This document shows, one piece after another, positions 471 through 64,000 of a stretch of DNA of 64,000 bases. The notes under the pieces were generated by a model. It did not search any database and was not told the origin of the DNA. It saw only the letters and a program-made list of their open reading frames with translations. The stretch comes from Octopus vulgaris (lineage: Eukaryota). The stretch spans positions 131,688,001 through 131,752,000 of the forward strand of contig OX597814.1 in NCBI GenBank assembly GCA_951406725.2. Reading direction: 5' to 3'. The position numbers and the translations under genes were made by a program. Each line of letters opens with the position of its first letter. Position 1 is the stretch's first letter.

Positions 471-699
471 ACGACGGGCTTCTTACAGCTTCCGTCTATC
501 AAATCCATTCCTCTCACAAGGCTTTGTTCGGCCCGAGGCTATAGTAGAAGACACTTGCCCAAGGTGCCACGCAGTGGGACTGAACCGGGAAACGTGTGGT
601 TGGGAAGCAAGCATCTTACCACACAGCCACAACTGTATGTATACACACACACACACATATATATATACATACATACATACATACATATATAAAAAAAAA

Positions 700-20499: not shown

Positions 20500-20540
20500 A
20501 CATATTTATATGTATATACGTATACATGTAAGTATGTACG

Positions 20541-23589: not shown

Positions 23590-24111
23590 TTAGTTCCCAT
23601 TGTCGTCTCTATTGACATCAACCTTCCGTGCACACACACAGGCTGTGGATACATAAATTATATCTGGTTTATACACATACAATCCATCAATACATTCACC
23701 TGTTCGTTTCAGGACAGTCATTTTAGTGTGTACAGGCGTACATTCTTGATTGGTGTACTTAGGGCCGACACAGGTTTCACAGCGACATCTCGCTTCCATA
23801 CGTGATGGAGGGAAAACTGTTGAATCATGCGTAATGTCCAGGTACCAAGGACAGGTTGAACGTTCGCGGATTTCACCAAAAGATTCAAGCGATGCTGGGC
23901 ACTTTTTATCTCCATCGGTCGGTGTTGTCCGGTTACTTTCGGCTGGGGCCATTTCAGCTGGCAGAAAAAAATGATTGTCAATGGCTGCTTTGGACAAGCT
24001 CTTGTAGCGGACTTTTAAGTCTGATGGTATTTTACATTGGGTTGGAATTGATGCCGAAGATACAATCAAGATGAAGTTCAAGATGAGAAAGATTACAACT
24101 TGAGGGAGATC
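23590..24111 (-). CDS. IL17: Interleukin-17-like cytokine, exon 2 (signal peptide plus cystine-knot domain)
   Basis: The ORF has a hydrophobic signal (VVIFLILNFILIVSSA) and the IL-17 motifs RSTCPW, EARCRCETC, ECTPV and TACVCAR. The acceptor ttgttttattacag|GAT is in phase 0 at 24112/24111, and the stop is at 23590. The ORF-track start at 24168 lies in the intron. Confidence 0.93.
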   Translation of the reverse strand, partial: DLPQVVIFLILNFILIVSSASIPTQCKIPSDLKVRYKSLSKAAIDNHFFLPAEMAPAESNRTTPTDGDKKCPASLESFGEIRERSTCPWYLDITHDSTVFPPSRMEARCRCETCVGPKYTNQECTPVHTKMTVLKRTGECIDGLYVYKPDIIYVSTACVCARKVDVNRDDNGN

Positions 24112-24205
24112 CTGTAATAAAACAAGATATATTTTCATTAAGCTTTCTACGTTAATATATATATACACACGTATATGTATATCTATAAATAGACAGATAA
24201 GTAGT

Positions 24206-24275
<70 letters not shown>

Positions 24276-25001
24276 TAGCTACCTCTTTTCTGTGTCTGGT
24301 TTGCACGATACATTATGTGAAGTCGTGTGTTGCATCACTGCGTGTGTTAATGTTATTGGGATAAAAACTCGCCTAAGTCACAACACTATACATGGAGTGA
24401 GAGAGAGAGAGAGAGAGAGAGAGGAAGAGAGGGAAAGAGAGAGAGAAAGAAAGAGAAAGAGAGAGAAGGAGAGGGCGAAAGAGACTGAGTGAGGAAGTGA
24501 GAGAAAGTGGAAAGATAGAAGATGCGATGAAGTCCATGCAATGAAGACCATTCAGTTCCAGGTCAGACCAGTGTTTGCGTGTCATTGGGATGCCAGCTAG
24601 GACTTGAACAATCACGACTGGACCAGCTTCGAAAGTGGGGTCTAAAAATCTTTAGACCACAGAAGCATCACTGACATTACATCCCATAGCATATGTATCA
24701 TAGCATATGCATCATAAACCTAATTCATTACATAGACATAGACAACTAGGTGATATAAAAAGGGGCAACAAAACACCCAGATAGACGATACAAAAAAAAA
24801 AACAAGGACTGGTCATTCGAAGCTTTCTATCCTCAGTCAAGAACTAAATCATCCTCGCAATTTTGGTATGAGTGTGTGTGTGTGTGTGTGTGTGTGCATT
24901 CATAGATACATAGTTTTTCATTATTGTAGAATAGGACGCTTTACTCCAGAAAGAGTGGCATGAAGAAATTCGCTAGTTAACATAAACTGAAGTCTACTTA
25001 C

Positions 25002-25004
25002 CAT
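25002..25004 (-). CDS. IL17: IL-17 exon 1 coding part (ATG only), followed by an 890-nt phase-0 intron (24112-25001)
   Basis: The minus strand reads aaataacgATG|gtaagtag, a perfect donor. Joining gives MDLPQVVIF. The same ATG|gtaagtag is conserved in the paralog at 59230. Confidence 0.82.
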
Positions 25005-25260
25005 CGTTATTTTTACTGTGGTGTTTTTTTCGCTTTGAAATATAAAGTAAGATGAGAGCAATACAGCCTGTAAGTCAGTAAGGCACTAAGGCAGCCAGAT
25101 ATTTAACTCGTTTCTGAATGTGATTTGCTTCTAAATGATATCGACTCTCCTTGATTTGCTCCTTATATACCGTTGCAAAATCCACTTATGTTAATGTTAT
25201 TCATAAAACAACAGGAACAGTATTTGATTTAAAAATATCAACGAGTGGGACTTCAAACTA
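25005..25260 (-). promoter_or_regulatory. IL-17 5'UTR, TATA box and proximal promoter
   Basis: TATATAAG lies at about 25162-25169 on the minus strand, about 160 nt upstream of the ATG, and is positionally conserved with TATATAAA at 59066. There is a C/EBP-like TTTTGCAA at 25173-25180. Confidence 0.65.
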
Positions 25261-26078: not shown

Positions 26079-27824
26079 CATCCATCAGCACGTTTTCTAC
26101 CACAGGATTTATCAATAGTTTTTAGCTAATTTGGAGGCACTAAATCCAAATCTGGCATCAGATTTTATCTACCACATAGAATTTTTGAGATATAAAATTT
26201 TTAAATTTGGCTAGAAAAGCTATTTAATGCTCATAATGTAATAAGTCAAAACACGAAGTTGTGGAGTAATTACACATTAGCATTTAAAAATTAAATTTGG
26301 TAATAAGAAAATATGACTACAAAATCTCTATTCATTGTGGTCATTCATTTTGATCATGTTATTACTGCAAGAACTTCCTCTGTTTTTCTTTGACTATCTC
26401 GTACACAACTTCTGGAAAATCTCTCATCCAGCTCCCGCGGTAATTTGCCGTTGTATTTGAATCCCATTGGCCTTGGTAGCGTTCTTCTATTTCTTTTACG
26501 TCTTGATAAAAGGGTTCACCTTCTTCTTCCCTAACATCACTCAGGTAGTCTGGAACTCACCCAAATGACTTAATTTAATGCCCATTTTCCATCGAAGTGC
26601 TCTTTTCCCACTCAGTGATCCTTTGTAGCCCTACTCTTCCAGTAGCACAGGAAACAAGGGTTCTTTGTGTAAACTCCTCACTGGCCCAGTAGAAGGTTTG
26701 CAATTTTCAGATCGACACAAATTGCTCGTCCATGAACATGATAGTGCAACTTCTCCAGAATTCTCTTCATGTTGGCATACTACTCTTTCATTTTTATAGA
26801 ATGTACTATTGGAATTGAGCCATACAAATTCCGTTGTGGAGTAAAAAAAATTCAATCTGGTTTTAGAGTTGTCAAGAAGTCTCCACTCACGTGAAATATT
26901 TGCCAGCACTCCCATATTGAGAAGAATCCCTTCAACATCATTGCAATAAACATGTTGACCATCTGAAAGGAAGTACGTCCACAGTTCTGCTTCTCTTTCA
27001 ATAAATGGAAACACAAGTGCCAGGTTTCAGCAGTCTTACCTCTTGCAAACCTGGAAGCCAATAATTCTGCTTTGGCTCATACAAATCCCTAACCAGATCA
27101 TTCAATTCAAGTTGACTAAACAGAGAAAAATGACCACAGTCTGAATCAGATGGCATAAGGCGTACATCTTCATCACCTGTAGGTGAATTGAGGGCTTCAT
27201 CATCAATCTGTGACATCTCAATAAATACAGGCACAGATATTTCCTTGGAGTGTGCAACCTGTCGACGCGCTGATAGGATATCTGGGTATTGCAATTTTCG
27301 TTTGGCTTTTGTATTGATCTCTTTGCACTCTGTCTTTCAGACCATCATCGCAAAGTTTCAACATATCTTTTTCAAATTTTGTGGGGATCCCAGGTTTTGT
27401 CCTAAGCTCCAAGTGTGACTTTGAAGTACGTAAAATACATCTCCATGACAAATTTATTAACGTTGCGCCTTTGATCCTGTGGGAGTGAAATTTCCACAGA
27501 TGTAATAGAAGACATCGGGGTCATTACAACCCCCCCCCTTCCTTTTGATGTATCCGTAACTAGATTACAGTAGTTTCCTTTACAACTGAAAAGAAGAGAT
27601 AGGGTTGTAAAGCAAAATTCTGCTTAGATATATTAAACCAACTGTATCTCCCGCAAATTGTGTTGTAAAGATAATTTTTGGTGTAATCCAAATAAAGAGG
27701 GCACAAAAATGTTATGTGATAGAGCAAATCCGAGATCAGTTTTGGGATCAGCACCCAAAAATTAATCTAAAACAGCTCTAAGATTTTATGCCAGAGAATA
27801 AAGTATTTAATTTGTTGACGAGTG
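26079..27824 (-). mobile_element. Degraded CMC-superfamily (Chapaev3-like) DNA transposon
   Basis: The minus strand encodes CNDPDVFYYICG...DKTWDPH, RLLKPGT, VYCNDVEGIL..MGV...EWRL and TK.PCFL. It has a CAC...GTG-type terminus and a TTA target duplication (26076-26078 and 27825-27827). The superfamily name comes from motif recall. Confidence 0.7.
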
Positions 27825-30132: not shown

Positions 30133-30523
30133 TCTCTCTATATATAAAACTGAAGTTGTCTGTGTATGGCAGGTTTAGTAGCCTTCAACTAACACTATCT
30201 CCTCAGAGACCCTGCGGCGCAAGTTGACCAAAGTTGAGGGTATGATAGAAGAAGGCTTGCTCTTCCTTCCGGAGCAGAAAAAATTCAAATCAGACCAGGT
30301 TAATACCAAAAATTATTTACATAAAAAAGGTGTTTTTTACTATGAAAATGCCTATTTTTTACGATTTTTTGACAGCTGTGTCGCCATTTTTCGGTGTATT
30401 TCAACCAGAAAAATGTTGACTTAAAGAAAATAACAAGCTACATAATGCAAAAGTTTTACTTTTCAAAAATTCCAATTCTAAAGGGTCGAAACAAACCCAA
30501 GCAACGCCGGGCGATACTGCTTG
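30133..30523 (+). mobile_element. Non-autonomous Helitron
   Basis: It has a 5' TC end, a subterminal GC hairpin (cccaagcaacgccggg) and a CTTG end, inserted between A and T with no TSD. The empty site matches the paralog intron at 59240-59260. Confidence 0.8.
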
Positions 30524-31100
30524 TATGAACTAAGGTCATCGTTATTTTTACTTATTGTGTGTTCTGTTTGAAATAGAAAGCAAGATGAGAGCTGTACGGT
30601 TGTAAGTCAGTAATGCACTAAAGAAACAAGAAACTTTACTCGTTTCTTATTATGATGTGCATGTAAATAATGTCGATAGTCTTTAAGTTGCTCATTATAT
30701 TTTCGAGTTGCAATCAAATTACATTTCTTTACTTCAATAGTTTCTAATATTTTACCTTCTCTCTACTAGTTGTTGACACTAGTTTTGTGGTTTCCGCACA
30801 ATGATATTCATAAAATAAGGAGAAAATATTTGATTTAAAATTAACTTGCAGTATTCTAAACTACACGGAAGAGTTTATATCCGGTAACTGCTGATCCAGC
30901 CTGTGTGTAAGAGTTCTTAATTACTTGCAAAGTTTCACAGCTACTATAATCCACTTCAGTGTTATTGTAGTTATCAGAGCAACTTAAAAATTAGAATAAA
31001 TAAAACTATAAAGTTGCTTGTTTATACGTTTATACGTTCTACTAGTATCATGAAATCTATACATCACTATTTGATTAATTTAACCAGTAAGACGTAATAT

Positions 31101-31514
31101 AAATAAATGCGCCCTTTTTTAAAGCCTAGCCAGGCTGATGTGGAGGCGCGTGGCTTAGTGGTTAGGGTATCAGCATCATGATCGTAAGATTGTGGTTTCG
31201 ATTCCTGGACCGGGCGACGCGTTGTGTGCTTGAGCAAAACACTTCATTTCTCGTTGCTCCAGTCCACTCAGCAGGCAAAAATGAGTAACGCTGCGATGGA
31301 CTGGTTTCCCGGTTGCTATGACGTATGTGTTCCCCAGCAGGACGGGGCGCCAGTCCATTGCAACGTTACTCATTTTTGCCAGCTGAGTGGACTGGAGCAA
31401 CGTGAAATGAAGTGTTTTGTTCAAGCACACAACGCCTCGCTCGGTCCAGGTATCGAAACCACAATCTTACGATCATGATGCTGACACCCTAACCACTAAG
31501 CCACGCGCCCCTAC
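31101..31514 (-). mobile_element. tRNA-derived SINE containing an inverted partial copy of itself
   Basis: A box tggcttagtgg and B box gtttcga(t)tcc. 12-bp TSD aagacgtaatat at 31089-31100 and 31515-31526. Confidence 0.88.
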
Positions 31515-31777
31515 AAGACGTAATATGTCTCGATGTAACTGTATAAAATTAAATAAAACCCAAACAGTTGTAACATACAATTGTTCTCTACTTGGGTTTA
31601 TAACTATTTGATATATTTAGAAAACATTTTCATAATTCCTGATGTGCATACACAAAAGCTAGAATCTAAGTAGTAACTTAAACGATTCTTAGCACGTCCA
31701 TGTTGATTCGAACGTGAATATTTTATTGCTGTTAATTTTTGTTATCGGAGAATATATTTGTATTTGGAATCTCACTG

Positions 31778-32208
31778 GGATCTTTTCGGTTTGACCGGCA
31801 GTTTTTTCTAGCGGTGTCATATGAAATTGTCATCCATAATTATGACCCTAGTATCGACCTATTGCATTTCAATGTTTTAGGGTTAGGGTTAGGTTTAGGT
31901 TAGGTTTAGGGTTGGGGGAAGGGTATCTTTTTTTCTTCAGAAATGTAAATAAACCCAATCTGTTTCTTAAACGAGGGACATATTCATACAGCACAGAATG
32001 TTTTCACCTCAATAGACGTCATTGATTGGTTGAAATTGCAGAAATTGAAGAAAAAAAACAACAAATATCTTACAAACTATAGAATTTTCTCAATAAAGCC
32101 AAGAGAAAAAGATGTTTTATAAACACATTCTACCAGTATACGAAGTTTAAAAGTGTTTAGTTACGTGGAAATTATTTTAAAAAACTGCCGGTCAAACCGA
32201 AAAGATCC
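31778..32208. mobile_element. MITE with perfect 30-bp TIRs, 8-bp TSD and internal TTAGGG-like repeats
   Basis: TIR ggatcttttcggtttgaccggcagtttttt and its reverse complement. TSD tctcactg at 31770-31777 and 32209-32216. Confidence 0.92.
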
Positions 32209-33229
32209 TCTCACTGGTCTGTGTGTATCCCGTGAACTAGTACCTGTTTGACAGATTTCTGCATGCGTCAGCAAATAAATTATTTGCCTATTCCTTATAA
32301 ACAAGAATTCGCGCACTTGACATTTTTATTGCCTAAGACAGTGGTTCCCAACCGATTTTTGCCCATGCCCCTCGAATCATTTCTAAAATTCTGATACTCC
32401 CTTGTGATATTAAATTTTGTTATTTAAAATTTGGTTAATGTAACAATATTATCCGGAAAGAAAAATAGTGCAACGGATGTAAAATAAAAATGTATAAGAA
32501 ACGAATATGAAAGAAAAAATGCGCGGAAAGCAACGGGTCAGGGAGGACTTCGGAAAATTCACAAGATCCGAGTTTTTCCCTCATAACTTTTAGGAAAATA
32601 TTTCGTTTTTGGATTTGGTTTGCAAGATTCTTTATATGAGTTCGTGTGTTGAAGCATATTCTGCTGTGTCTGGGGAGAGTCATTTTCTTTTTGTGCCTTA
32701 TAATGTAACACACTCACCGGTAAAATTTCCACTTTTTTCTTATTTTTATTTTCAACCGGCATGGATTACGATTATAAAGAAATTTGTGGGAAAATCTTTT
32801 CCGAGGTGTGAAATTCACCTAAGGTTTGGTCCCTGTGCTGCCGTCCTCTGCGAAAATCATGCTTGTATCACATCAAAACACTAAGACAGAACTATTTCAC
32901 CTCAAATGGCCCCCTTTCTTTAATATCATGTCAAGACATGTAAGAGAACATTTCATAACATTAAAACGGTTCCTGGATCAATATTTTTCCTTTATTATTT
33001 CATCTGTCTTTACGTTCTGAGTTCAAATTCCGCCGAGGTCGACTTTGCCTTTCACCCTTTCGGGGTCGATAAATCAAATACCAGTTGCGCGTACTGGGGT
33101 CGATCTAATCGACTGGCACCTTCCCCAAAATTTCGGGCCTTGTGCCAAGAGCAGAAAAAAATATTGTCTCCTTTATTAGTTTGGGCTCCAGAGCTGCGAT
33201 CATGCTAGGTCACTGCCATTAGCTTTGCT

Positions 33230-36527: not shown

Positions 36528-39051
<2,524 letters not shown>

Positions 39052-40462: not shown

Positions 40463-41553
40463 GGTGTGCTGTCATGTATACGTATATACATAATTATGCA
40501 TACATCATTGTGTGCATGTGTGTGTGAGAGAGAGAGGGGAGAGAAAGAGAGAGTGAATGCCACTTAGATATCGCTTTCTACTCTGTCTCTCACACGTACT
40601 ACCCACACATACATACAAAAACGATGTATGCATATGTAGTAATATATGTACATATACATGACAACACACACCTTGACTCACTCTCTCTCTGACAAACATA
40701 CACACATACATAAATGTATACAAACGTACTTACAAAAACACGTGTGCGTGTCTGGCTGACTTGTGCGCGTGTGTGTGTGAGAGAGAGAGAGAGGAAGAGA
40801 GAGAGAGAGAGAGAGAGGGTGAGAGAGAATATTGCGAACAATGAATGAAATAAACATGAAATGAAAAAAAGTCATATAAATAAAAAGCTCTTGTACGGAA
40901 TGTTTAAATTTGAGAACTTAGTAACTATTTCATTCATTAATTTATCGTAGTTGTTTGCTAATAGTGAATTAAAACTTGAAATGAAGACGTCAAAATAGAG
41001 AGTGAAGCTTTTTGCCGTTGCTATGTCAATACTGGAAGTTGACATTGAGAAACCTTTTTAAAGAAGTGAATCATATATGTGAAGCAATATTATTTATTTT
41101 TAATAACAAAATCAAATGAAGAGCCTAACATGTGTCCGAGGTCAAATTATTCATACATCACAAGTACGGAAGCAATTGGCGAAGCCGTTTTTGCGTGAAA
41201 AGCGAATACGCACACATCTCTATTTATATATTAGGCAATCCCTGGCTTACTATCCATGCAGAAAGTGCAAAAGCTTGTCTCAGTTGGTACGTCACACGTA
41301 CTGAGAAGAGCATTGTCGCTGTAAATTTCATTTCCTTTTCTCCTTTTTATTTTCTTTGCTCACATTTTAATTTTGTACGTTTTACTTTTTCTCTCTATCT
41401 TTTTTACTCTTTTTCTCTATCACTTGACTTTGTAAATGAACAATCTGGTGTGTTTATTTCAATGGCCTAACAATGTATACAGTGAATTTCTCTGCCATAG
41501 GTATCTGGAAGACACTCGGCAAGAAATAGAAGCATTATTGAAGGATGATGATG

Positions 41554-41621
<68 letters not shown>

Positions 41622-41622
<1 letters not shown>

Positions 41623-42462
41623 GTAATGGTAAATACTGGACTAAACTAAACGCAAAAGAAATAGACAAAGAAAAATCCCAGCAATGGTTGAGAAGCTCAG
41701 GACTCAAAGCAGAAACAGAGGGATTTTTAATTGCAGCACAAGACCAAAGCCTCCCCACCAGAAATTACCAAAAACATGTAATGAAAAGAAATATTACAAG
41801 TAACTGCAGAATATGTGGAGATGGACAAGAAACAATAAATCATATTATCTCTAGCTGCCCAGTCCTGGCTAAGAAGGAATATATTCACATACAGAGTTGG
41901 AACCTACATACATTGGAAGCTATGCCAACATTATGGAATAACAACAGAAAAAAGATGGTATAGGCACACACCAGAAAAGGTCACAGAAAACGAGAAAGCA
42001 ACCATACTCTGGGATATGCCGATACACACAGATAGAGAAATTAAGGCCAACAGACCAGATATAGTTGTCAGAGATCATGAAGAAAAAAAATGCTTTCTAA
42101 TTGATGCATCAATACCGGCTGATGACAACGTGTCTCTAAAAGAAATGGAGAAACTCTCAAAATACAAAGACCTGAAAATAGAGGTAACTAGAATGTGGAA
42201 TCTGAAAACAGAAACAATTCCTATCATAGTAGGTGCATTATGCATGAAAAAAAATATTCAGACAAATACATAACAAAAACACCAGGACTTACAAACACAT
42301 ATAACATACAGAAAATTGCACTACTAGGCACTGCACACGTCCTACGCAGAGCACTTTCCATACAATAACCATCAGAGCATCACAACAAATCACAGCACAT
42401 ACCCAAGGCACACAGAGCTGCGCTCGGTAGTGAAGTGAAAGCACGCTATAAAAATAAAACTA

Positions 42463-47121: not shown

Positions 47122-47167
<46 letters not shown>

Positions 47168-47317
47168 CCAATTAAGGACTGCACACGAAAAGTGGACAGT
47201 CAACATGCTAGATATAGACGTCAAATCGCCATTCTCCACAAAAAGTTTATGTTCTCAGATCAAACTCAACAAAACCAAAGTAATAAACAAGTGAAAAATA
47301 TACGAAATAAATATTTA

Positions 47318-47384
47318 CCCATGTACTAAATTTAGTTTCAGCTGTTATTTTCCGCAAGGAAAAGTGCAGCATCATCAGCATGGT
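47318..47384 (-). ncRNA. Type I hammerhead ribozyme, inverted copy
   Basis: Reverse complement of 47984-48050, with an intact core. Confidence 0.85.
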
Positions 47385-47983
47385 CCCATATAAAATGTAA
47401 TTTGCTGGACTAAATGCCAACAGACACCAAAATATCGCGTGCATGGAGTCCGGCCTATTACATTTGAAATATATATTTCAAATGCCACTACTTTTGGCGC
47501 GATGAGACCCGAGAAAACTAGCCTGTACTAAATTTAGTACATGGGTAAATATTTATTTCGTATATTTTTCACTTGTTTATTACTTTGGTTTTGTTGAGTT
47601 TGATCTGAGAACATAAACTTTTTGTGGAGAATGGCGATTTGACGTCTATATCTAGCATGTTGACTGTCCACTTTTCGTGTGCAGTCCTTAATTGGTATAT
47701 ATAAATATTTTAATCTTCGGATTCTTTTTTAATATGCTAGACCACTGGTTCTAATTGATAAATATCAATTTTTACCCTAAATTTAATTTTATAAATATTT
47801 GTTCTCTAACCGATAAATTAACTGCTGCTAACTATTAGCTGCAGGCTAGTTTTCTCGGGTCTCATCGCGCCAAAAGTAGTGGCATTTGAAATATATATTT
47901 CAAATGTAATAGGCCGGACTCCATGCACGCGATATTTTGGTGTCGTGTTGGCATTTAGTCCAGCAAATTATATTTTATATGGG

Positions 47984-48050
47984 ACCATGCTGATGATGCT
48001 GCACTTTTCCTTGCGGAAAATAACAGCTGAAACTAAATTTAGTACATGGT
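47984..48050 (+). ncRNA. Type I hammerhead ribozyme (canonical core)
   Basis: accatg-CUGAUGA-stem II (gcug/cagc enclosing uuuucc/ggaaaa)-GAAA-c uaaauuua g-UA-cauggu. Stem I is 6 bp, stem III is palindromic, and the cleavage triplet is GUA. Confidence 0.88.
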
Positions 48051-48297
48051 TAAATATTTATTTCGTATATTTTTCACTTGTTTATTACTTTGGTTTTGTT
48101 GAGTTTGATCTGAGAACATAAACTTTTTGTGGAGAATGGCGATTTGACGTCTATATCTAGCATGTTGACTGTCCACTTTTCGTGTGCAGTCTTTAATTGG
48201 TATATATAAATATTTTAATCTTCGGATTCTTTTTTAATATGCTAGACCACTGGTTCTAATTGATAAATATCAATTTTTACCTTAAATTTAATTTTAT

Positions 48298-48358
<61 letters not shown>

Positions 48359-50320: not shown

Positions 50321-52774
50321 CACACACACACACACATACACACACACACACACACACACATACACACACACACACACACACACTCACAACTCATAGAATT
50401 GATTATATTGAAAACAGCAAAATGTACACATACGAAGCTAAAGCGAAACGAAATCTATTAAAAAATGGCAAGTCACCAATTTAGCAAAAATGACTAAATG
50501 TAGTCAATATAGGTGCAAAACATACTTCCTGTAGCATAATCATGCTATAAAACATGTAAAGTCACCAATTTAGCAAAAGTGAATATGTGTCACCAGTGTT
50601 ACAAAGTACAGAAAGTCAACATTTATTTGGAACATGCACTAAATGTTATAAAATTCAAGATTGAATATCACGGTGAAGAAAGTGAAAGCCTAAGAAAATT
50701 CAGAAGGCATAATTCACTTTTTTTATACAAAAATAATTTATTCTATAATTTTGAAACGAACGCTGAACCAAGTGTATAGAAAAGAAAATGCTGTTGTTGT
50801 GAACGTTAATTTGAAATATTTGCTGAAGGATGTATGTAGCAAGATACAAGTTAATTTGACATTACTAAATATGTTTTAACTGTTTACTTTTATAGGCTGT
50901 AGAATAAATACCGACTAACGCAGTAAAGAGGTTGTGCGATGTTGATACTCTCAGAGATGAAGAAGCTTGGGAAGACTGTTAAAAATTACGTTGAAGCTAG
51001 TTAGAAAGTGTGGAATAATATTTCTGCAATTATAGTGAAAGAGCCGTTGCGGCTTTCTACTTCGCCAAGTTACTGAATTTGTTATAATAACCAAAATAAC
51101 ATTTTCCCCAGATATATTTGCGAGTCTTGTGAGTGGTGTAAAATCAGCCAAATCTTCATGTTGGTAGTACTTGAAAGTGAACGTTGTTGTTCGTTTAAAG
51201 TCCAGGCCGCAACTAAAGTTTCAATATCGGCGCGTTTAACTGTTGGGCGGGAGAAAGTTACATACATAACCTAAGACACACACATACCTTAACGCACACC
51301 TGAAGCCTATCTCTGTCCCTGTGTGTCACTTGTCACAAAAGGTATGCATACAGACAGACACATACACCAACACACACACACACTTATCAGTCATCGGCCT
51401 AACGTAGGTAACGAACGCGCGAACACATTCAAATAGAAAATGTGACGTCATCGTCGTTATAGTGGTGATATAAAATGTCGTTTATCATAAGTGACTAAAA
51501 GAAAAATGACAATGTAAAATTTTTGTAATGCAAATATGTGAATGAAAATATAGTTTCGTTGATAGCCAAAAGCCTACTGAATCTTTTGATACCCCATACG
51601 TTTTGGAATGCATAAGGAACATACGCGCCCGCACACACAGACACACATATACAAACTCTCTCTTATATATATATATAACTATCTATGTATATATTTTTTA
51701 AATGCAGAAATGGTTAAATTTGCCATCTTTGTATGTCTGCTACGTAATTATATATATATTATAACATACTTCTATGCAGAGGGGACTAACATCCCCGTTA
51801 ACATGCATCTGATATAAAACAATGTGTCTGACACTTATGGCATGCAAATTAGTAACTCCAGTTCTATGTCGTTGCTGGATTTGTTGAGCATATAAGTATT
51901 TGGGACACACACTCACACTCTGTGGAATATTAAACAATTATATAAATCAAAAAATTCCCAGATTATACGTAATTAAAATCATCACATAGTAAGGTAACTA
52001 GAATTACAAATTTAACGTCTGTTACATCCTACTTTCTTTATAGCATAATTCGCAACCTCTCTGTTCACCTTAGCACGGAATAGCAAATTTCCTAACAGTT
52101 TATTCCATAGTTTTGTTTGTATAGATACACACTTGCATGCATAGATATGTGTGTGTGTGAGCTTGTGTGAGTGCGTACGTAAGTAGTAGTCATAGAAGCA
52201 TCTAGACATCCCAGAATGTATATATGCATATGAGTTCTTCATATAAGTAATTCGTAATTGACTTTTTCCCTTGTTTCACATACTCGTTGGCCATGACTAA
52301 TTTTTAATTAGTTTTATAACATTCTTAATGAATAAATGCTTTACATAAACGAAGTAATGTTCATATCTGTCTACTTCCCCCCCCCCAAAAAAAAAAAACA
52401 CTTACCACACACCGACATACGAATATAAACAAACCCACAAATAAATATACACATGCACGTTGTTGAAACATCCTGGCCACGTAAGAATATGAATGATTTT
52501 GATACAATGTCCTCTTTTTAACACTGAATTCTGTCTGTGTTCTCTTTTTAACACCGAATCTTGTCTGTGTGCAGTCTACTATGATCACCAGATTGGAATT
52601 CTCCCTCTCTCCCTCTCTCCTTCCTTCCATATTCCCTCTCTCCTTCTCTCCCTTGCTTTCTCGCTGTATCTTTCTCTGTTTCTCTCTCTCTTTCCAAATG
52701 TGTGTCTGTGTGAATGAGTTTTATGTATGTATGCACATACGTATGTATATGAAGTTATATATATTCCCCCCACA

Positions 52775-55256
52775 CACATATCCTATTCCGAAGGATATTT
52801 TTGCAAAATTAAATGGCGACAGAATATTTTCGAAACTGGATCTGTCTGATGCGTATCTACAAATTAAAGTAGACGGGGAATGCCTGAAGCTTCTAACTGT
52901 GAATACGCACAGAGGGCTATACAGATACAATGGACTACCATTTGGTCTGAAGGTCGCAGCTGCAATATTTCAACAGGTTATGGATGCGATGTTGGCGGAC
53001 TGTTAATTTGCAATTCCATATCGCGAAGATGTATAAATTAAAAATGAATCTCGTGATCAGCATATCGAACATGTGAAGTGTGTTTTTCAAAAAATAAGAG
53101 ATTATGGTTTCACACTCAGTGAGGAGAAATGTGAATTGTTTTGGCCTAAAATTAAATATTTAGAACAAATTATAGATAAAAATGGAAAACGACCTGACCC
53201 GTCGAGGAGAGACGCAATTACAAATATACCTCCCTCAACTAACATAGCGACATTAAAAGTTTTCTTGGCCTAGCGAACTATTATCAAAATTATATACCAA
53301 ACATGTATGAATTGAGAGCTCCACTTAATAATTTGCTAAAGAAAGACGCCAAATAGAAATGGTCAAATAACTGTCAAAGGCATTTCAGGATATTAAAAAA
53401 ATGTTAATTTTAGATTTGCTGCTGGTTCACTTCGATCCTGCCGCGGAGATTGTTGTAGCGTCTGACGCTTCTGAATACGGCATTAGAGCAGTTTTGCTAC
53501 ACAAATATAAAGACAGTAATATGAAAGCATGAGTTCATGCCTCACGTGCTCTGACTGTAGAAAAAAAAACTGCAGTCAGATAGTGACAGAAGATACAGCG
53601 ATTATTTTTGCCCCTGAAAAATTTTTACAGATTTCTCCACAGTAGACGTTTTCGGATTCAGATGGACCACTGAGCGTTGTTATCAATTTTTGGATCGAAG
53701 AAAGGAATTCCTACCATTACAGTCAGAAAAGGAAATTAAAAACGTTATGTGTAGTGTCATTCAGGACTGTACAAGATATAAAATGTAAATCAGCGGAGGA
53801 CAAATACATTATAAAAATGAAGGAAACCTTGAAAAATTAACATTAGAGAAACGCAAATGCGATCCATTTTTCACTCTACAACAGTACGCACAAAGGGTGG
53901 TCTACCAACTGCACAACAGAAGCGGATATATGAATTTTATTGTGAACACCCGGGGATGTCAAGAATGAAAGCTTGATGAGGAGTTACGTGTATTGGTCAA
54001 TAATGGGCCGGGGCATTGTACATTTGGCAAAATCATGTAGAGGTTGTGCGCTAGCAGCCAAGGCACCACCGGTGAAATACCAATCGTGGCCTGAGGCGGA
54101 TAGTCCGTAGTCCAGGGTTCATATAGATTACGCTGGACCAGTGAAAGGCGCGTACTACTTGATCATTGTTGGTAGCTTTATCAAGTGGCCGGAAGTATTT
54201 AGGTGCAGTCAACCTAGCTCGAAGGCAACAATAAAATTCCTGCATGAATTTTTTAGTCGATACGGTGTTCCGGACACCATAGTATCGGACAATGGAACAC
54301 AATTTACAGGATATGAGTTTAAAAATTCTGAAAATGTATGCAGTCAAGCACATGTTTAACCCATTCTACCACCCGAGGTCAGATGGGCAAGCAGAACGAT
54401 TCGTAGATATTTTTAAGCGAGCGCTAAAAAAAGCAAGGAACGAGTTAGGAAATGACAAAACGCTAAATTATTAAGGGTGTACAGAATAACGCCCAATCCA
54501 AATACTAGCTCAGGCAAGTCTCCTGCAGAGCTAATATTCATTCGAAAGATTAAATCGATCTTCGGCAAATTGTTGCCAAAGGGGAAAAAAAAGCGTATAG
54601 AGGAAATACAAAAAGTTCAACCAAACATTTTGATGTCGGAGACAAAGTCCATTTCAAAGTATACAAGTAAAAGTAAAGAAAGTTGGCAGAGTGGTGTAGC
54701 GACTAAAAGAATTGGAAACATGATGTATTTAATAAAAGGCCAACGATGGAAGCGTAAACGACACCTAAATCAATTAAAAACCAGACATACAGAAGAAAGG
54801 AAGGAAATTCCAGTGGAAGTGCAATACGACATGTTTAATGTGCTTCAGTAGATTGAGCCTAGAGGGAGCAGTAACAGAAAACGTAAACAGACTGAACATT
54901 TAGAAATAATTCCTAAGCGGAAAGGTACTGAACTCCCTAGGGAAGCAAAATTTCAAAATGGGAGAAGTGTTGGAAATAAATAAATAATAATAAGATAAAT
55001 TTCATTTTCTACGAAGATCAAAATCTCAAAAGGGGAGATGTTGTGGCGAGAATCACGACATCATCTGCGAGAACAGACCAGAGAGAGTAGGCATTAATTG
55101 CAGGAAGTCGCAAGATGTCGTTTTGGTAGTATATCGTTTGTTGGCTCGTGTATAGTTCGTGGAGAGTTTGTTGGATTGTTACGTTGTTACTACCCTGCTT
55201 CGTTACATGTTTGATTGTAAGTACACGGTTATAGTGTAAAAAGTATAATCATAACA
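52775..55256 (+). mobile_element. Gypsy LTR retrotransposon remnant (RT, RNase H, integrase, PPT, 3' LTR)
   Basis: Motifs FSKLDLSDAYLQI, NTHRGLYRY, GVPDTIVSDNGTQF and YHPRSDGQAERFV. The PPT aaaaggggaga is followed by a TG...CA LTR at 55039-55256. Confidence 0.9.
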
Positions 55257-55861: not shown

Positions 55862-55959
55862 ATATTTCTGCTTCTTGTAAAGCATTTGAACTCAGGATTA
55901 GCCTGGACAAGACTGTCTTAATGTTCTAGCCTGCACCAGGAAATCCATATGTGTAACCA

Positions 55960-56790
55960 GCTATCTTGGTTGAAGTAACAATACTGAAAAGAGTAGACAA
56001 GTTTATCTACCTGGGCAGCACACTCAGCCGTTCTTGTTCCTTGGATGATGAAATATCTTTCAGGTTGCAGAGAGCAACTGATTCCTTTAGGCCTTTTGAG
56101 TCTTGTGTCTGGTCCCAACACGGCATCACAAAGCGAACAAAAATTGCTGTGTACCGTGCATGTGTAGTGATATCACTCATTTACTTATATGAGAAATGAA
56201 CCCTTTACAAACGTCATGTAAAGATCATTGAACGCTTTCATCAGAGATGTCTGAGACACATTCTGAATGTCGGCTGGACCTTTAAAACTTCAGATACACA
56301 GGTCCTGAGGAAAGCTGACAACCTGAATATTGAGGCGATGGTGCACAAACACCGATTACATTGGATTGGACACCTTATTAGAATGAATGTTAGCCAGATA
56401 CCGAAACATATGCTATATGGGGAACTTGTTAGCGGAAAGCAACCCCGGCAGAAGCTAATACTGCGACTTGAGGGCTGTGTAAAGTGCTCATTAAAAGCTT
56501 GTGAAATGCGGGAGGGCTGACTGAGAAAGCAATGCTTGTCATCGCTACGGATGGAGGAAACAGGTGAAGAAGGAGTCAACACCTTTGAAAGAACACATAT
56601 TCTTCATGAAGAATTTAAGCGTGCTGCTCGAAAACGCACTACTAGTGTAAAGAACTGGGAAAGCTTGGTCTGCAATGTTTACAGTCGTCTATGTTTGTCA
56701 AGAGCAGGACTCGTTAGTTACCAGCGGAGCCGCAAGTATAAAGTATAAGATAGTGTTGAACGCATAATATTCCTAAAGGTCAGTAATGAT
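55960..56790 (+). mobile_element. RTE-clade LINE 3' remnant
   Basis: Motifs FIYLGSTLS, TKIAVYRACV, RLHWIGHLIRM..QIPKHMLYGEL, and a terminal degenerate C2H2-like motif. Confidence 0.85.
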
Positions 56791-57351: not shown

Positions 57352-59036
57352 TGGTGTGCGGTGGTTAAATTGTGGCCATTTATATTTTTAAATCCACACA
57401 TGCACATTGTTTGCTTTTGATTTTACCGACTACACAGTATAGTAGGGTCAGCTGGGCACCGTCTGTGAGAAAAACAGCCCCATGATGCATTCCCCACTCT
57501 GCTGGAAACTTGGAAACGATATGCTTGGAATTCGCGCCGGAAGCTCCAATACGAACACTCTGAGGACAGCGCAGAGGATTCGGAAAGAGTTGGATGAATC
57601 TAATGGTGATTACGAAGATACGGCAGAGCGGAAAACTCAATCTGATCGAATTTGTTGGTGAGATCCAGGCCATGATTGACAACGATCCCCACAAGACAAT
57701 CAGGTCATTCGCTTGAGACATGGGAGTGTCTTAGATTCTTATCAGGAAAGAGAATATCATTCGGCTTGGAATGACTTCACTGGTATTATGCAAAATTTCC
57801 CTGCGAATAGGAAAGATGACAACTATGAAGGGATTGTGGAGGAGCTGATTAGAATGAATGAAAACAATAATTTTGCATTCATATTTTGTTATCAGCAAAC
57901 TTAATTTTTAAATGCTAACGTGCAACTTAGCAACTTTGTGATTTGATTTATCGGATTAAAACAATAAGACTTATTGTATATTAAAAATTGCATGTATCTA
58001 TGTTTAATCCTCCCTTTATATGCATGAAATAGCTGTTTCTGGCAAAATTAAAGATTATATATCTCAAAACTGCGAAGTGATAGACAAAATCTGATGCCAG
58101 ATTTGAACTCAGTACCCTAAAATTAGCTAAAAACCAATTGATAAACCTTGTGCCAGAAAACGTGCTTACAGTGCAATAATTCCTGGGGTGCACGCAGAGC
58201 AGTGAGAATCCAAATAAAAGGATATTCTCCGATAAAGAAAATTAAGAGGGATTAAGAATGTACAAAGAATGGCCAGATACGTCATTGTTTAGATCCTAGC
58301 TTTTTTGCATGCTTCCCATGAAAAAGGAAAAATGTTTGGAAATTTTGATATGAAATATTTGTATTCTCAAGTATAGAGGAATTCCTTGTTATACCTATTT
58401 GTTATGACTGAATGTTACTCACAATTTTGTACATTTACGTTGAGGGATATCCCTTCTTATTGTTTATATAATTGTAAATTAATTAGTGTTGTAAATTTCG
58501 AGATTACGGTACAAGTTATATTAACTCATATACCTGCGACATTATAAGCTTCTTTAATTCTAATGGTGTAGTTGTACTGCATCACTTGGAGAGACTACTC
58601 TGATACACAGAAATTCTATCGAGTAATTATATAACAGTAAAACTTACTATATAAAATGATATTTGAATCATTATCGCTGTTTATTGCAATCCAAAAGAAA
58701 AGAAAATAAATTTTGCTATTACAAATGTGAACGCTTAAAGTGAATTTGTCTTTGCACAACAGTGTCCGGACGAAAATGTATAATTCTATGTTAAAATTAG
58801 AGAAAGCAGGTAAGAAAGCATATATTGCAGCTTAGATGAATGTGTATCGATAAGATCTACAATAACACTCACTGGACAGGGTCATGGTAGTAGTGACATT
58901 CTATAAATCCTTAAAAAGTATTACACAAAGTCCGGATTCACTATACAACCGGATGAAAGCTCCGTATAGTTTGGAGTTCCACAAGTTAATATTTTTAAAT
59001 CATATATTTTTCATTGTATTATGAAGAACAATAAAT

Positions 59037-59240
59037 GGAAATCCCATTAGTGGGTTCCCCAGCTGTATATAAAGCGCAAAATTCAAGACAGTCGATGTCA
59101 TTTAGAAGCACATCATATTAACAAAGGAATAAGATATCTTGCTGCCTTAGTGCTTTACTTACTTACGGTCGTACTGCTCTCATCTTGCTTTCTGTTTCGA
59201 AGAGAACAAATACTACAGTTAAAATAATAATGGTAAGTAG
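59037..59240 (+). promoter_or_regulatory. Promoter, TATA, 5'UTR and ATG micro-exon of a second IL-17 paralog
   Basis: This is an inverted homolog of 24990-25180. It has TATATAAA (59066-59073), a shared 5'UTR (gctgccttagtgc..., tgctctcatctt) and ATG at 59230-59232 followed by gtaagtag. kappaB-like GGAAATCCC (59037-59045) and GGGTTCCCC (59052-59060) lie just upstream. Confidence 0.78.
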
Positions 59241-59359
59241 ACTTTAGTTTATCTTATTGAGCGCGTTTCTGCATGTCACACCTTAAATATTTGAGTTTTC
59301 TATATGATGTAAAAAGCTTCAGAATTTGTCTACAATAATCAAAATCAATCAATCAATCA

Positions 59360-59452
<93 letters not shown>

Positions 59453-59514
59453 ATCTATCTACATGAGTATGTATATATCTACTTACTTACCCATGGTACT
59501 CTGTGTGTGTGTAT

Positions 59515-59588
<74 letters not shown>

Positions 59589-59758
59589 TGAGGGAGATAA
59601 ATTGAATATTAATTTAATTATTGTCAATTTAAAACCAGTAGCCTAGCGTATAAAAGATCTGAAAAATCAGAAAAAATTTCAATACATGTTTATATTTAGG
59701 CTAAAACGTGAAACTCAGAGTAACAGGTTTTGTTGAATTCTCTGCTGCTTTAAATAAA

Positions 59759-59822
<64 letters not shown>

Positions 59823-60700
59823 CTCGGCATAGAAGAAATGAAAAAAAATAATATGCTGAAAATTTTATCAGAGATGTTGAATGTAGTGTGATTGGTGGCA
59901 AGATAGATAACTTATTTGATGTTGATTTTCTAAAACCGCTAAGATGTATATTATAACATAATTGCAGCATTGTGTTTCTGATGTGTAAAAGAATTATGCA
60001 TTAATACAGGATATATATATAAAAAAAAAACCCATTTTATCGACACAGGTAAGATTGTGTAGTGAAGAGGTTCGCTTTACAACCATGTGGCTTTGCGGTT
60101 CAATCCCACTACACAACATCTTAAGCAAGTGTCTCCTTCTGTATCCTCACAATAATTTGTGAGTGAATTTGGTAGAAGGAAACTGTGTGCAACCGTAAGT
60201 TATATACGTGTGTATGCGTGTGTGTGTGTGCGCGCACACTTACCTTTGTGCCTGAGTTTTAACACACCTGGCTTTAACAAGTAAGTACTAGTATCGATAT
60301 GTTCCATCAAACTCATCACAGCGATGTCCCAGCATGGCCACAGTCTAATCATTGGAACAAGTAAAAGATGAAAGATTTTCTTCAGTAAATTTCAACGATT
60401 CGTTGTAACATATCTTCTTGGTTCAAATGTTTTCTTATACTATAAAAATTCTTATCTGCATATAAAAGTTGTTTACTTATAATTTCACACATTTACTTGT
60501 ATATTGACACTCCTCTATTTAATGTATTTGCCCTTTGACTCTTACTGTCTTTCGGCTTGCAACAACAGCTATTTGAAGTAGTTTCAAGTGAGGCAATCTA
60601 TTGTGTATGTTTGTTACTTTAATTATTTGTCTTCGTTACCATTCAAAAATGAAAGTAAAGTAAAATCATGTGTCTAGTATCTACATATATACATACATGC

Positions 60701-60745
<45 letters not shown>

Positions 60746-60843
60746 AAGATACATACATACATACATACATGCATACGTACAACTACACACACACACGCAC
60801 ACATACATGCATAAATACATGCATGCATACATACATACATACA

Positions 60844-60879
<36 letters not shown>

Positions 60880-61497
60880 TATACATACACACACACATAC
60901 TTAGAGAGAGAGAGAGAGAGGTAGACAGAGAGAGGCCAACCATTGTTTCTTTCAGCATTAGACGAGGGTCGCTGTTCACTTCCTGTCTATGTATATGGAT
61001 TAGGTTTATGATGCATATTATAGGTGCTATGAGATGTAATGTCAGTGGTGTTTCTGAGGTTTAAAGATTCTTAGGGGTTTTCGACATCGGATTCCCTCTC
61101 CCATCTGATCTATTCGTGGTCAATCAAGTCCAAACTGGTATCTCAATAGCATTTAAACACTGATCCGCACTCTGGAGCCAAAAGCCACATATTGATCTTC
61201 ATTGCAACTTCTATCTCTCCAGCATTCCACTCTCTCTTTTCCTCTCTCTCTTTCTCTCTCTCTGTCTATATGTAGTGGTGTGACTAGGGAGAATTTTTAT
61301 GCGAATATTATTAACACACACACTATTGCAACACACGCGTTCATATAATGGATCTCACAAACCAAATACAAAAAAGAACTCCCTCTATCCCTGCATGTAT
61401 GTATGTATGTATGTATGTATGTATGCATGTATGTATGTATGTATGTATGTATGTATGTATGTATGTATGTATGTATGTATGTATGTATGTATGTATG

Positions 61498-61556
<59 letters not shown>

Positions 61557-61579
61557 AGTCTGTCTATCTACATACATAC

Positions 61580-61649
<70 letters not shown>

Positions 61650-61787
61650 ATGCGTAGGAGTGACTGTGTGGTAAGTAGCTTGCTTACCAACCACATGGTC
61701 CCGGGTTCAGTCTTCTACTATAGCCTCGGGCCGACTAAAGCCTTGTGAGTGGATTTCGTAGACGAAAACTCAAAGAAGCCCTTCGTA

Positions 61788-61868
<81 letters not shown>

Positions 61869-62282
61869 TGCGTTTGTCCTTCCAACATCGTTTGACAACC
61901 GATGCGGGTGTGTCTACGTCACCGTAACTTAGCGGTTCGGCGAAAGAGACCGATAGAATAAGTACTAGGCTTCCAAAAAATAAGTCCTGGGGTCAATTTG
62001 CTCGACTAAAGGCGTTGCTCCAGCATGGCCACAGTCAAATGACTGAAACAAGTAAAAGAGATAAAAAAAGAGAAAAGAGAGAAATATATATATACATATA
62101 TTAGAAAAAAACCCACCTTTTATCAATTCAAAATGAGCAATTATATTACACGATCTAGAAAATTACATACAATAGAAATATTAAATTAAAATAATAATAA
62201 AGTAAATTGCAAAAAAAAAAATTGAATTAGTATTTCTAAATCGAATTTTTTCCCTGTAAGTTATGATTAATTTTCGCTCAAA

Positions 62283-62346
<64 letters not shown>

Positions 62347-62449
62347 ATCCAAACAAGAAAACAGAAAAAAACACAGAAAAAAACACAGCAACGCGAGGAC
62401 GTGGAACAATTAAAGTATTATTTGACGCTCAGGAAAGAAGGGAAGGCGG

Positions 62450-62484
62450 GTTTAACGTTTCGAGCGGAGCTCTTCGTCGGAAAC
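62450..62484 (-). ncRNA. Minimal hammerhead-like motif
   Basis: guuu-CCGACGA-a-gagc ucc gcuc-GAAA-cg-UU-aaac. Confidence 0.6.
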
Positions 62485-62535
62485 AAGGAGAAGGAAAGAT
62501 CCCGAGAAGGGAAGACAGAGGAAAAAATATTTTTG

Positions 62536-62590
<55 letters not shown>

Positions 62591-63034
62591 ATTTCGGGAT
62601 GGTCATTTTTTCTTTTGGGCCAAATTAACACACACACTATACATTCACAGATGTGAGGCGAAAAATTTCCGGACAGTGGACATGAGATAGAATAAGTTCA
62701 GTAATAAACAAGTAAAGAAGGAATATGTAGTGTTTATTTCGGAAAAAATGAAATTTACAAAAATGACCATAGGCGCAGGCGTGGCTATGTGGAAGGAAAG
62801 CTTGCTCCCCAACCTCATGGTTCCGGACTCAGCTCCACTGCGTGGTACCTTGGGCAAGTGTCTTCTACTATAGCCTGGGGCCGACAAGAACCTTGTGAGT
62901 GGATTTGGTAGACGGTAACTGAAAAAAGCACGTCGTATATATATATATATGTACTTTATTTAAAGCATATTACTCTACCACTGGTATTTGAGTACTCTTT
63001 TTTCCACCTTGTTTCACATTTATGTGTTTACTCC

Positions 63035-63109
<75 letters not shown>

Positions 63110-63544
63110 ATGTGTGTGTGTATGTGATATATATACCAGAGTAAGCATATAAATGTGAAACAAGGTGGAAAAAAGAGTACTCAACTACCAGAGGTAGAGT
63201 TACATGCTTTATTTAAAAGCAGTAGAAATATAACAAAAGTATATATATATACACACACACACATACTTATATGTATATATTTGTGTGTCTGTGGTTCTCC
63301 CCCACCATCGCTTGGCAACCGACGTTGATGTGTTTACGTCCCCGTCAAAAGAGACCTATAGAATAAGCACTAGGCCTACAAAGAATAAGTTCTGGAGTAG
63401 ATTTGCTTCATTAAAGGGGGTGCTCCAGCTTAGCGTTAGTCAAATAACTGAAACTAATAAAAGAAAAAAATGGATCCCGAAATGCAACAATATCTGCTTT
63501 ACCGCGCGACTTCACATCAGGAATCTTGTAACAGATTCATAAAT

Positions 63545-63637
<93 letters not shown>

Positions 63638-63709
63638 ATATTTTGTGAAATTTGATTTACTATTTCTAAATTGAATTTTTCCCTGTAAGTTTGGAATAAT
63701 ATTCCCTCA

Positions 63710-63779
<70 letters not shown>

Positions 63780-63835
63780 TAGTTTTATTTTTATAGCGTG
63801 CTTTCACTTCACTACCGAGTGAATAATACCAAGAC

Positions 63836-63895
<60 letters not shown>

Positions 63896-64000
63896 CAATA
63901 TATATATATACATATATATATATATATTTAAGTAGGTGAATGAATTATCCTATGTTTATCGTCAGCATGGAAAATTCGTTTAACCGAAACCTGGGTCGCA

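What the first reader, a model, noticed from the sequence alone, without database searches (positions are those of the whole stretch)
57960..61400. Hidden second IL-17 paralog, divergently oriented, detectable only from non-coding homology
Seen: 57960-59260 is an inverted homolog of about 24970-26250, including the TATA, 5'UTR and intact ATG|gtaagtag. 60980-61390 matches the first gene's intron (24280-24740). The intron has swollen with microsatellites and SINEs from 0.9 kb to more than 4.7 kb, and no exon 2 is found before 64000. Established: octopus genomes have an expanded, clustered IL-17 family. Inference: a head-to-head pair about 34 kb apart, with exon 2 beyond the window.
Basis: partly seen in the sequence, partly recalled or inferred. 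Interest (0 to 1): 0.7.

Follow-up and report, generated by a model that had tools for sequence, protein, structure and literature searches.

The report
Duplicated octopus IL-17 promoter and exon
This is an inverted duplicate of the promoter, start-codon-only first exon and intron of a neighbouring octopus interleukin-17 gene, likely the front half of one more ordinary member of that well-known expanded immune gene family whose coding exon would lie just past the edge of the sequence.

Summary
57846-59279 (+) is an inverted duplicate (81.5% ungapped identity) of the 5' end of an intact 174-aa IL-17 gene at 23590-25004 (-). The TATA box, initiator-like motif, ATG and GTAAGT donor are intact. 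60984-61394 matches that gene's intron. No second IL-17 coding exon lies in the window.

Corrections: (1) everything left of 58174 is a shared Chapaev3-like transposon end, not promoter. (3) Identity is flat from transposon to 5'UTR, so conservation does not show selection. (4) The pair shares no bidirectional promoter.

For a live gene: intact signals, three kB-like sites found only in this copy, and three further close O. sinensis paralogs that also start Met-Asp. Best reading: an ordinary paralog with exon 2 beyond 64000 (0.63); orphan or pseudogene 0.31. It is 'hidden' only because exon 1 codes just Met and the window ends. Low interest.

The parts
58174..59065 (+). Copy 2 upstream region, homologous to copy 1 26078-25170 and to copy 3
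   Evidence: 854 of 1049 columns identical for 58174-59279
59066..59074 (+). Copy 2 TATA box
   Evidence: copy 1 counterpart at 25169
59098..59103 (+). Initiator-like TCATTT 32 nt after the TATA start (31 in copy 1); inferred transcription start near 59100
   Evidence: absent from copy 3
59100..59232 (+). Predicted exon 1: 5'UTR of about 130 nt ending in ATG (59230-59232); no other ATG after the initiator
59233..59238 (+). Splice donor GTAAGT, identical to copy 1
58444..58453 (.). kB-like site (strict GGGRNWYYCC match, palindromic), absent from copies 1 and 3
59036..59060 (.). Two kB-like sites (59036-59045, 59052-59060) just upstream of the TATA box; copy 1 has a 10-nt gap and substitutions here
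57846..58173 (+). Right end of a Chapaev3-like DNA transposon shared with copy 1 at the same site
   Evidence: 217 of 263 columns identical
60984..61394 (+). Intron block collinear with copy 1 intron 24738-24284, ending about 170 nt (copy 1 scale) before the acceptor
61395..63927 (+). Microsatellites and dispersed SINE-like repeats at the position of copy 1's pre-acceptor microsatellite
   Evidence: 2002 of 2610 nt in 61391-64000 are tandem or dispersed repeat; 8-18 other hits per element; the SINE label is recalled
63927..63965 (+). Weak look-alike of copy 1's last 46 intron bases, ending in CAG; unresolved, probably chance
23590..24111 (-). Copy 1 exon 2: hydrophobic leader, IL-17 domain and stop; 173 codons, 10 Cys
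24112..25001 (-). Copy 1 intron, 890 nt, GT...CAG, phase 0
25002..25169 (-). Copy 1 TATA (25169), initiator-like motif (25138), 5'UTR and ATG (25004-25002)
26079..27824 (-). Chapaev3-like DNA transposon upstream of copy 1: CAC start, TAA duplication between A and T, subterminal inverted repeats, decayed transposase
30520..31777 (-). Copy 3: orphan promoter and 5'UTR. ATG kept (30539), donor removed by an 8-nt deletion, TATA and initiator degraded, foldback insert at 31139-31515, no exon 2 downstream
32208..32272 (-). Empty site of the Chapaev3-like insertion upstream of copy 3
   Evidence: left flank 28 of 32, right flank 22 of 32 (copy 1) and 24 of 32 (copy 2), ungapped

Best explanation
The stretch is an inverted duplicate of the 5' half of the neighbouring octopus IL-17 gene (promoter, Met-only exon 1, intron), and it likely still works as an ordinary IL-17 paralog whose single large coding exon would lie just beyond base 64000. 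Shown: homology, orientation, intact core signals, shared transposon insertion, and absence of exon 2 in the window. Inferred history: an ancestral gene gave copy 3 and the copy 1/2 ancestor; a Chapaev3-like element inserted 1.07 kb upstream of the ATG in the latter; an inverted duplication then made copy 2 (JC distance about 0.2); repeats piled into the microsatellite before the acceptor and pushed exon 2 out of the window. Inferred working: TATA/initiator-driven Pol II transcription from about 59100 on the + strand, possibly Rel/NF-kB-inducible through three kB-like sites; ATG spliced in phase 0 to an exon starting with an Asp codon, giving a secreted cystine-knot cytokine of about 170-178 aa like O. 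sinensis P0002, P0003 or P0008.
For: TATA, initiator-like motif, ATG and GTAAGT all kept in copy 2, while copy 3 lost the initiator match and the donor and has a degraded TATA. With a per-site change of 0.095 on the copy 2 branch, keeping 15-22 such positions neutrally has probability 0.22-0.11, substitutions only. Three loose kB-like sites in 892 nt: 2 of 2000 dinucleotide shuffles reach 3, 0 of 71 real tiles hold 3, copies 1 and 3 have 0; the single strict site is reached by 35 of 2000 shuffles. Oyster Rel knock-down lowers CgIL17 mRNAs (PMC11830306, passages). Intron homology runs to about 170 nt from the acceptor and is followed mostly by repeats. Copy 1 is 97% identical to O. sinensis P0001 and falls in a 9-row clade (support 100/97, bootstrap not fully settled) with three further O. 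sinensis paralogs at 73, 75 and 68% identity and four O. bimaculoides ones; 6 of the 8 database proteins start Met-Asp. 13 of 15 O. sinensis hits list the same 213-Mb contig length.
Against: No exon 2 in 4768 nt after the donor. Identity is flat: transposon part 233 of 283, TATA-to-ATG 139 of 170, Fisher p 0.90, so there is no selection signal. Copy 3 shows that exon-2-less duplicates arise at this locus. 63927-63965 ranks first of 103 non-self (TA)n anchors as a match to copy 1's intron end and ends in CAG; splicing there would give six codons and a stop. The kB motifs were noticed by eye before testing and two patterns were tried. No database protein can be tied to copy 2.
Confidence: 0.63

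Rival explanations
1. Copy 2 is an orphan promoter or pseudogene: a partial duplication, or a full one whose exon 2 was later deleted, replaced or broken. Its signals survive by chance or by recent death.
For: Copy 3 is such a relic in the same window. Flat identity. Neutral retention of the motifs has probability 0.11-0.22. Possible acceptor remnant at 63927-63965 followed by non-IL-17 sequence: first of 103 anchors under three scoring sets, 5-7 of 2000 shuffles. Sea urchin has 5 of 35 IL-17 sequences that are pseudogenes or assembly-truncated (PMC5457136, passages).
Against: The acceptor look-alike is not significant unanchored: 27 of 48 and 18 of 48 unrelated stretches score as high, and true copy 1/copy 2 homologous 46-mers have median 49 against 20-24 observed, with 9 of 151 at or below 20. 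Copy 2 has changed no faster than the intact copy 1 (44 vs 58 private changes, p 0.17). kB-site excess.
Confidence: 0.31
2. Promoter capture: the duplicated promoter and Met-only exon 1 now splice to a different, non-IL-17 exon or drive a non-coding RNA.
For: A phase-0 Met-only exon can join any downstream phase-0 exon. Signals are intact although no exon 2 is near.
Against: None of the long open frames after a YAG in 59233-64000 looks like a real exon; most run through microsatellites or repeats. No Rfam match. Close Met-Asp paralogs exist that fit the simpler reading.
Confidence: 0.04
3. The similarity is due to independent insertions of dispersed repeats or to an assembly duplication, not to paralogy.
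For: Part of the upstream match is a transposon, and a 50-nt piece of the intron block also occurs at 32602-32651.
Against: Collinear homology crosses the transposon boundary into 1.1 kb of sequence found only three times in the window (nhmmer), through TATA, ATG and donor. 18.5% divergence with copy-specific insertions excludes an allelic or assembly copy.
Confidence: 0.02

Closest known systems
Octopod interleukin-17-like gene expansion (Pfam PF06083): 31-36 genes in O. bimaculoides, tandem-duplicated (PMC8353272, passages; octopod-specific expansion, PMC8257504, one passage)
   Same: Copy 1 is a member (97% to O. sinensis P0001). Copy 2 is its sister duplicate on the same chromosome segment.
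   Different: Copy 2's coding exon was not seen. Gene density here is low (one coding exon in 64 kb). The duplicate is inverted rather than tandem. The primary genome paper was not held, so orientation within the published cluster was not checked.
Sea urchin SpIL17-1 tandem array and SpIL17-4a alternative first exon (PMC5457136, passages)
   Same: Two-exon genes whose first exon codes only Met (or Met-Glu) and whose IL-17 domain is in exon 2; arrays include pseudogenes.
   Different: Independent lineage expansion. Copy 2 is on the opposite strand to copy 1, so it cannot serve as an alternative first exon for copy 1's exon 2; copy 3 is on the right strand but has no donor.
Bidirectional (head-to-head) promoter gene pairs; the usual under-1-kb criterion is recalled
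   Same: Divergent orientation.
   Different: 34 kb apart, each with its own duplicated promoter, with transposons and a third copy in between.
Chapaev3 DNA transposons, CMC group (PMC4079192, passages)
   Same: CAC...GTG termini, TWA duplication between A and T, paralogous empty site.
   Different: Decayed and internally deleted. Each copy has one mismatch at the right junction. The transposase was not confirmed by a tool.

Membership tests
IL-17 family (copy 1, reference gene) | Pfam IL17 domain above the curated cut-off | tested here: met
   PF06083, 55.2 bits vs cut-off 24, E 1e-14; family profile hits IL-17A/F chains in the PDB at E about 4e-8 to 1e-7
IL-17 family (copy 1, reference gene) | Cystine-knot cysteines with CPW motif | tested here: met
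   10 Cys; the C-P-W columns are invariant in the 36-row alignment
IL-17 family (copy 1, reference gene) | N-terminal signal peptide | tested here: inconclusive
   Hydrophobic leader, Kyte-Doolittle 11-residue mean 3.25 at residue 7; no signal-peptide predictor was available
IL-17 family (copy 2, the finding) | Descent from an IL-17 gene (homologous promoter, exon 1 and intron) | tested here: met
IL-17 family (copy 2, the finding) | Met-only exon 1 with intact phase-0 donor | tested here: met
IL-17 family (copy 2, the finding) | Coding exon with IL-17 domain and signal peptide | not testable with these tools
   Absent up to 64000; sequence beyond the window is not available
IL-17 family (copy 2, the finding) | Spliced transcript | not testable with these tools
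   No read data
IL-17 family (copy 2, the finding) | Purifying selection on core promoter and exon 1 | tested here: inconclusive
   Flat identity, p 0.90; motif retention probability 0.11-0.22 under neutrality
IL-17 family (copy 3) | Intact donor and a coding exon | tested here: not met
   8-nt deletion removes the donor; no exon 2 between it and copy 1
Bidirectional promoter pair | Shared short promoter between divergent starts (criterion recalled) | tested here: not met
   33.96 kb apart with separate duplicated promoters
Chapaev3 transposon (26079-27824; right end at 58173) | CAC/GTG termini and TWA duplication between A and T | tested here: met
   Left junction A-TAA-CAC; right end GTG in copy 2, TAA-T in copy 1; empty site at copy 3 (criteria)
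Chapaev3 transposon (26079-27824; right end at 58173) | Chapaev-type transposase | tested here: inconclusive
   No Pfam hit for one 131-aa stop-free piece; resemblance of other pieces is recalled only

The most novel reading that the evidence does not exclude
Copy 2 is a living IL-17 paralog that kept or gained a cluster of three Rel/NF-kB sites which its sister copy 1 lacks. With the dead copy 3 as outgroup and a shared transposon as a time marker, this locus is a small natural experiment in how the octopus IL-17 expansion diversified by promoter rewiring (one infection-inducible copy, one Rel-independent copy) and by birth and death of promoter-only duplicates.
Probability: 0.2. Interest if true: 0.45.

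Novelty: new member of a known kind. Interest (0 to 1): 0.2.

Why it matters
If complete, it adds one more gene to an expansion already counted at 31-36 genes in a related octopus, and its counterpart is probably among the annotated O. sinensis proteins. The modest lasting value is practical. Met-only first exons are invisible to protein-based annotation (two of four O. bimaculoides models in this clade carry long N-terminal extensions, inferred to be mis-called first exons). Promoter homology also reveals dead copies that gene counts miss. The kB-site contrast between sister promoters offers a cheap reporter test of regulatory divergence among octopus IL-17 genes.

Tried and rejected
Exon 2 inside the window: tblastn, six-frame family HMM with stops as X, and nhmmer found nothing beyond copy 1. 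Acceptor remnant at 63927-63965: significant when anchored on (TA)n ends, not when unanchored or calibrated against true homologous pieces; left unresolved. A conservation peak at the core promoter: none. Fused or longer IL-17 models (304-2000 aa): 131 candidates, none significant (weak evidence). Structured RNAs: 0 Rfam matches, 0 tRNA genes. Further promoter copies: only three, by a profile built from the same three. The left part of the transposon near copy 2: not found. Accession numbers and gene order of the paralog proteins could not be looked up. The O. bimaculoides genome paper (PMC4795812) was not held, and a search for 'octopus', 'interleukin', '173 kb' found 0 papers. In the supplement of PMC8353272 the gene-structure table's head rows concern isoforms and receptors, and 'Octopus' occurs only in one figure legend. 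PMC9068888 has no mention of IL-17 in its main text. Searches showed, in their listings, no paper on octopus IL-17 promoters or exon structure; subscription journals are not covered. No structure or complex prediction was run, because copy 2 supplies no protein. The unnamed hit P0021 was left out of the alignment and tree (35 of 36 hits used).

Full report
Reference gene. The - strand carries an intact two-exon gene (copy 1): ATG at 25004-25002, an 890-nt GT...CAG intron, and exon 2 at 24111-23590, giving 174 aa. Exon 2 matches Pfam IL17 (55.2 bits, cut-off 24). Of 46 candidates, 36 proteins matched; the 35 named ones are octopod IL-17-like proteins, the best at 97% identity from Octopus sinensis. 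A profile of the family hits IL-17A/F chains in the PDB. The window is therefore inferred to be from O. sinensis or a very close species.

The observation. 58016-59279 (+) aligns with 26236-24955 (-) at 73.8% (E 0) and extends to 57846; 1072 of 1315 ungapped columns are identical. Copy 2 has TATA at 59066, an initiator-like TCATTT at 59098, ATG at 59230-59232 and GTAAGT from 59233. The one upstream ATG lies before the inferred start. The intron block 60984-61394 is collinear with 24738-24284 (176 of 222 and 87 of 115 columns). A 36-sequence family HMM on all six frames finds only copy 1's exon (next best E 1.1), and nhmmer with the intron end, exon 2 and 3'UTR finds only microsatellites. Of the 2610 nt from 61391 to 64000, 2002 are tandem or dispersed repeats.

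About 31777-30520 on the - strand is a third homolog of the promoter and 5'UTR; a profile built from the three finds no fourth. Copy 3 keeps the ATG (30539), but an 8-nt deletion removes the donor, the TATA is degraded and the initiator match is gone. No exon 2 lies between it and copy 1.

27824-26079 upstream of copy 1 begins CAC after A-TAA, ends before TAA-T, and has subterminal inverted repeats. These are the Chapaev3 hallmarks given in PMC4079192 (passages); the transposase was not confirmed (no Pfam hit on one piece). Copy 2 carries the element's right end at the same site (ends GTG at 58173). Copy 3 has the empty site, ungapped: 28 of 32 left and 22-24 of 32 right flank positions. Copies 1 and 2 are therefore sisters and copy 3 the outgroup, which fits the private-change count over the whole three-way alignment (66, 50 and 147 of 706 columns, part of which is poorly aligned). 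Everything left of 58174 is transposon, not promoter.

Is copy 2 alive? Against: identity is flat across transposon (233 of 283), distal (461 of 565), proximal (201 of 250) and TATA-to-ATG (139 of 170) segments (Fisher p 0.90), so the homology records duplication age (JC 0.20-0.29), not selection. For: with 0.095 changes per site on its branch, 15-22 signal positions would survive neutrally with probability 0.22-0.11, and copy 2 has evolved no faster than copy 1 (44 vs 58 private changes in 601 well-aligned columns, p 0.17). Copy 2 alone has three kB-like sites (58444, 59036, 59052): 2 of 2000 dinucleotide shuffles reach three, 0 of 71 tiles hold three, and the strict pattern gives one site (35 of 2000). 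I saw these sites by eye first and tried two patterns, so this is modest evidence. Rel knock-down lowers IL-17 mRNAs in oyster (PMC11830306, passages); promoter binding was not shown in the passages seen. A tree of 35 of the 36 hits plus copy 1 puts copy 1 in a nine-row clade (100/97; bootstrap not fully settled) with O. sinensis P0001, P0002, P0003, P0008 and O. bimaculoides P0004-P0007; six of these eight start Met-Asp, as an ATG exon joined to a GAT-starting exon would give. P0002, P0003 and P0008 (73, 75, 68% to copy 1) are candidate counterparts of copy 2's product, but none can be tied to it.

A lead against, unresolved. 63927-63965 follows a (TA)n run, resembles copy 1's last 46 intron bases and ends in CAG. 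It ranks first of 103 non-self anchors under three scoring sets (5-7 of 2000 shuffles). Unanchored, 27 of 48 and 18 of 48 unrelated stretches do as well, and true homologous pieces score far higher (median 49 vs 20-24; 9 of 151 at or below 20). If real, exon 2 has been replaced and splicing would give six codons and a stop. I treat it as probably chance.

On wording. 'Head-to-head' is geometry only: the starts are 33.96 kb apart, each has its own 1.07-kb upstream copy, and the interval holds copy 3 and retroelement remains. 'Swollen' is partly right, but copy 2 and copy 3 share intron sequence that copy 1 lacks. An intron of 5 kb is ordinary in octopus (mean 5.4 kb in O. minor; PMC6279123, passages).

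Known context. O. bimaculoides has 31-36 IL-17 genes in tandem duplications (PMC8353272, passages and a supplement search); the expansion is octopod-specific (PMC8257504, one passage). Sea urchin IL-17 genes have first exons coding only Met or Met-Glu, and arrays with pseudogenes (PMC5457136, passages). The primary octopus genome paper was not held. The labels SINE, mariner, Helitron, MITE and Gypsy are recalled, not from a call.

Verdict. A real inverted duplicate of an IL-17 gene's 5' half. Most likely a normal paralog with exon 2 just outside the window (0.63), otherwise an orphan like copy 3 (0.31). New member of a known kind; interest 0.2.

Noticed in passing
window 30520-31777 (-): Third, dead copy of the IL-17 promoter and exon 1: donor deleted, no exon 2.
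   Followed up: yes
window 26079-27824 (-), 57846-58173 (+), 32208-32272 (-): Chapaev3-like transposon shared by copies 1 and 2, with the empty site at copy 3; it orders the duplications.
   Followed up: yes
window 31778-32208: MITE-like element with 30 of 30 nt terminal inverted repeats and an 8-nt target duplication, inserted in copy 3's upstream region.
   Followed up: partly
window 31139-31515: Foldback insert (88% self-complementary over 380 columns) inside copy 3's promoter.
   Followed up: no
window 30140-30515 (-): Insertion just after copy 3's ATG, after which intron homology to copy 2 resumes; its ends look Helitron-like (label recalled).
   Followed up: partly
window 57440-57845 (+): Tc1/mariner-like coding fragment to about 57740, then about 100 nt that look like another transposase piece absent from copy 1's element (both labels recalled); this bounds the copy 2 homology on the left.
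   Followed up: partly
window 584-2467 (+) and 19400-20502 (+): Non-LTR retroelement: 627-aa open frame with RVT_1 (E 3e-32) and an 88% identical second copy.
   Followed up: partly
window 36723-37990, 41436-42273, 52503-54851, 55957-56745: Further retroelement remains; RVT_1 at 36723 (E 1.5e-4) and 52503 (E 9e-12). LINE-like and Gypsy-like labels are recalled.
   Followed up: partly
window 47153-48300: Nested recent duplication: 47153-47525 inverted at 47842-48213 (98%) and 47527-47795 direct at 48032-48300 (99%); foldback element or local assembly quirk.
   Followed up: no
window 23424-23176 (-): Copy 1 3'UTR has an AU-rich element match at 23424 and AATAAA at 23388, 23176 and 23167, as expected for a cytokine mRNA.
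   Followed up: no
P0005, P0006 (O. bimaculoides proteins): Long N-terminal extensions in place of Met-Asp, likely mis-called first exons because the true exon 1 codes only Met.
   Followed up: partly
window 32602-32651: A 50-nt piece matching the end of the intron block of copies 1 and 2, suggesting that the block is partly an old repeat.
   Followed up: no
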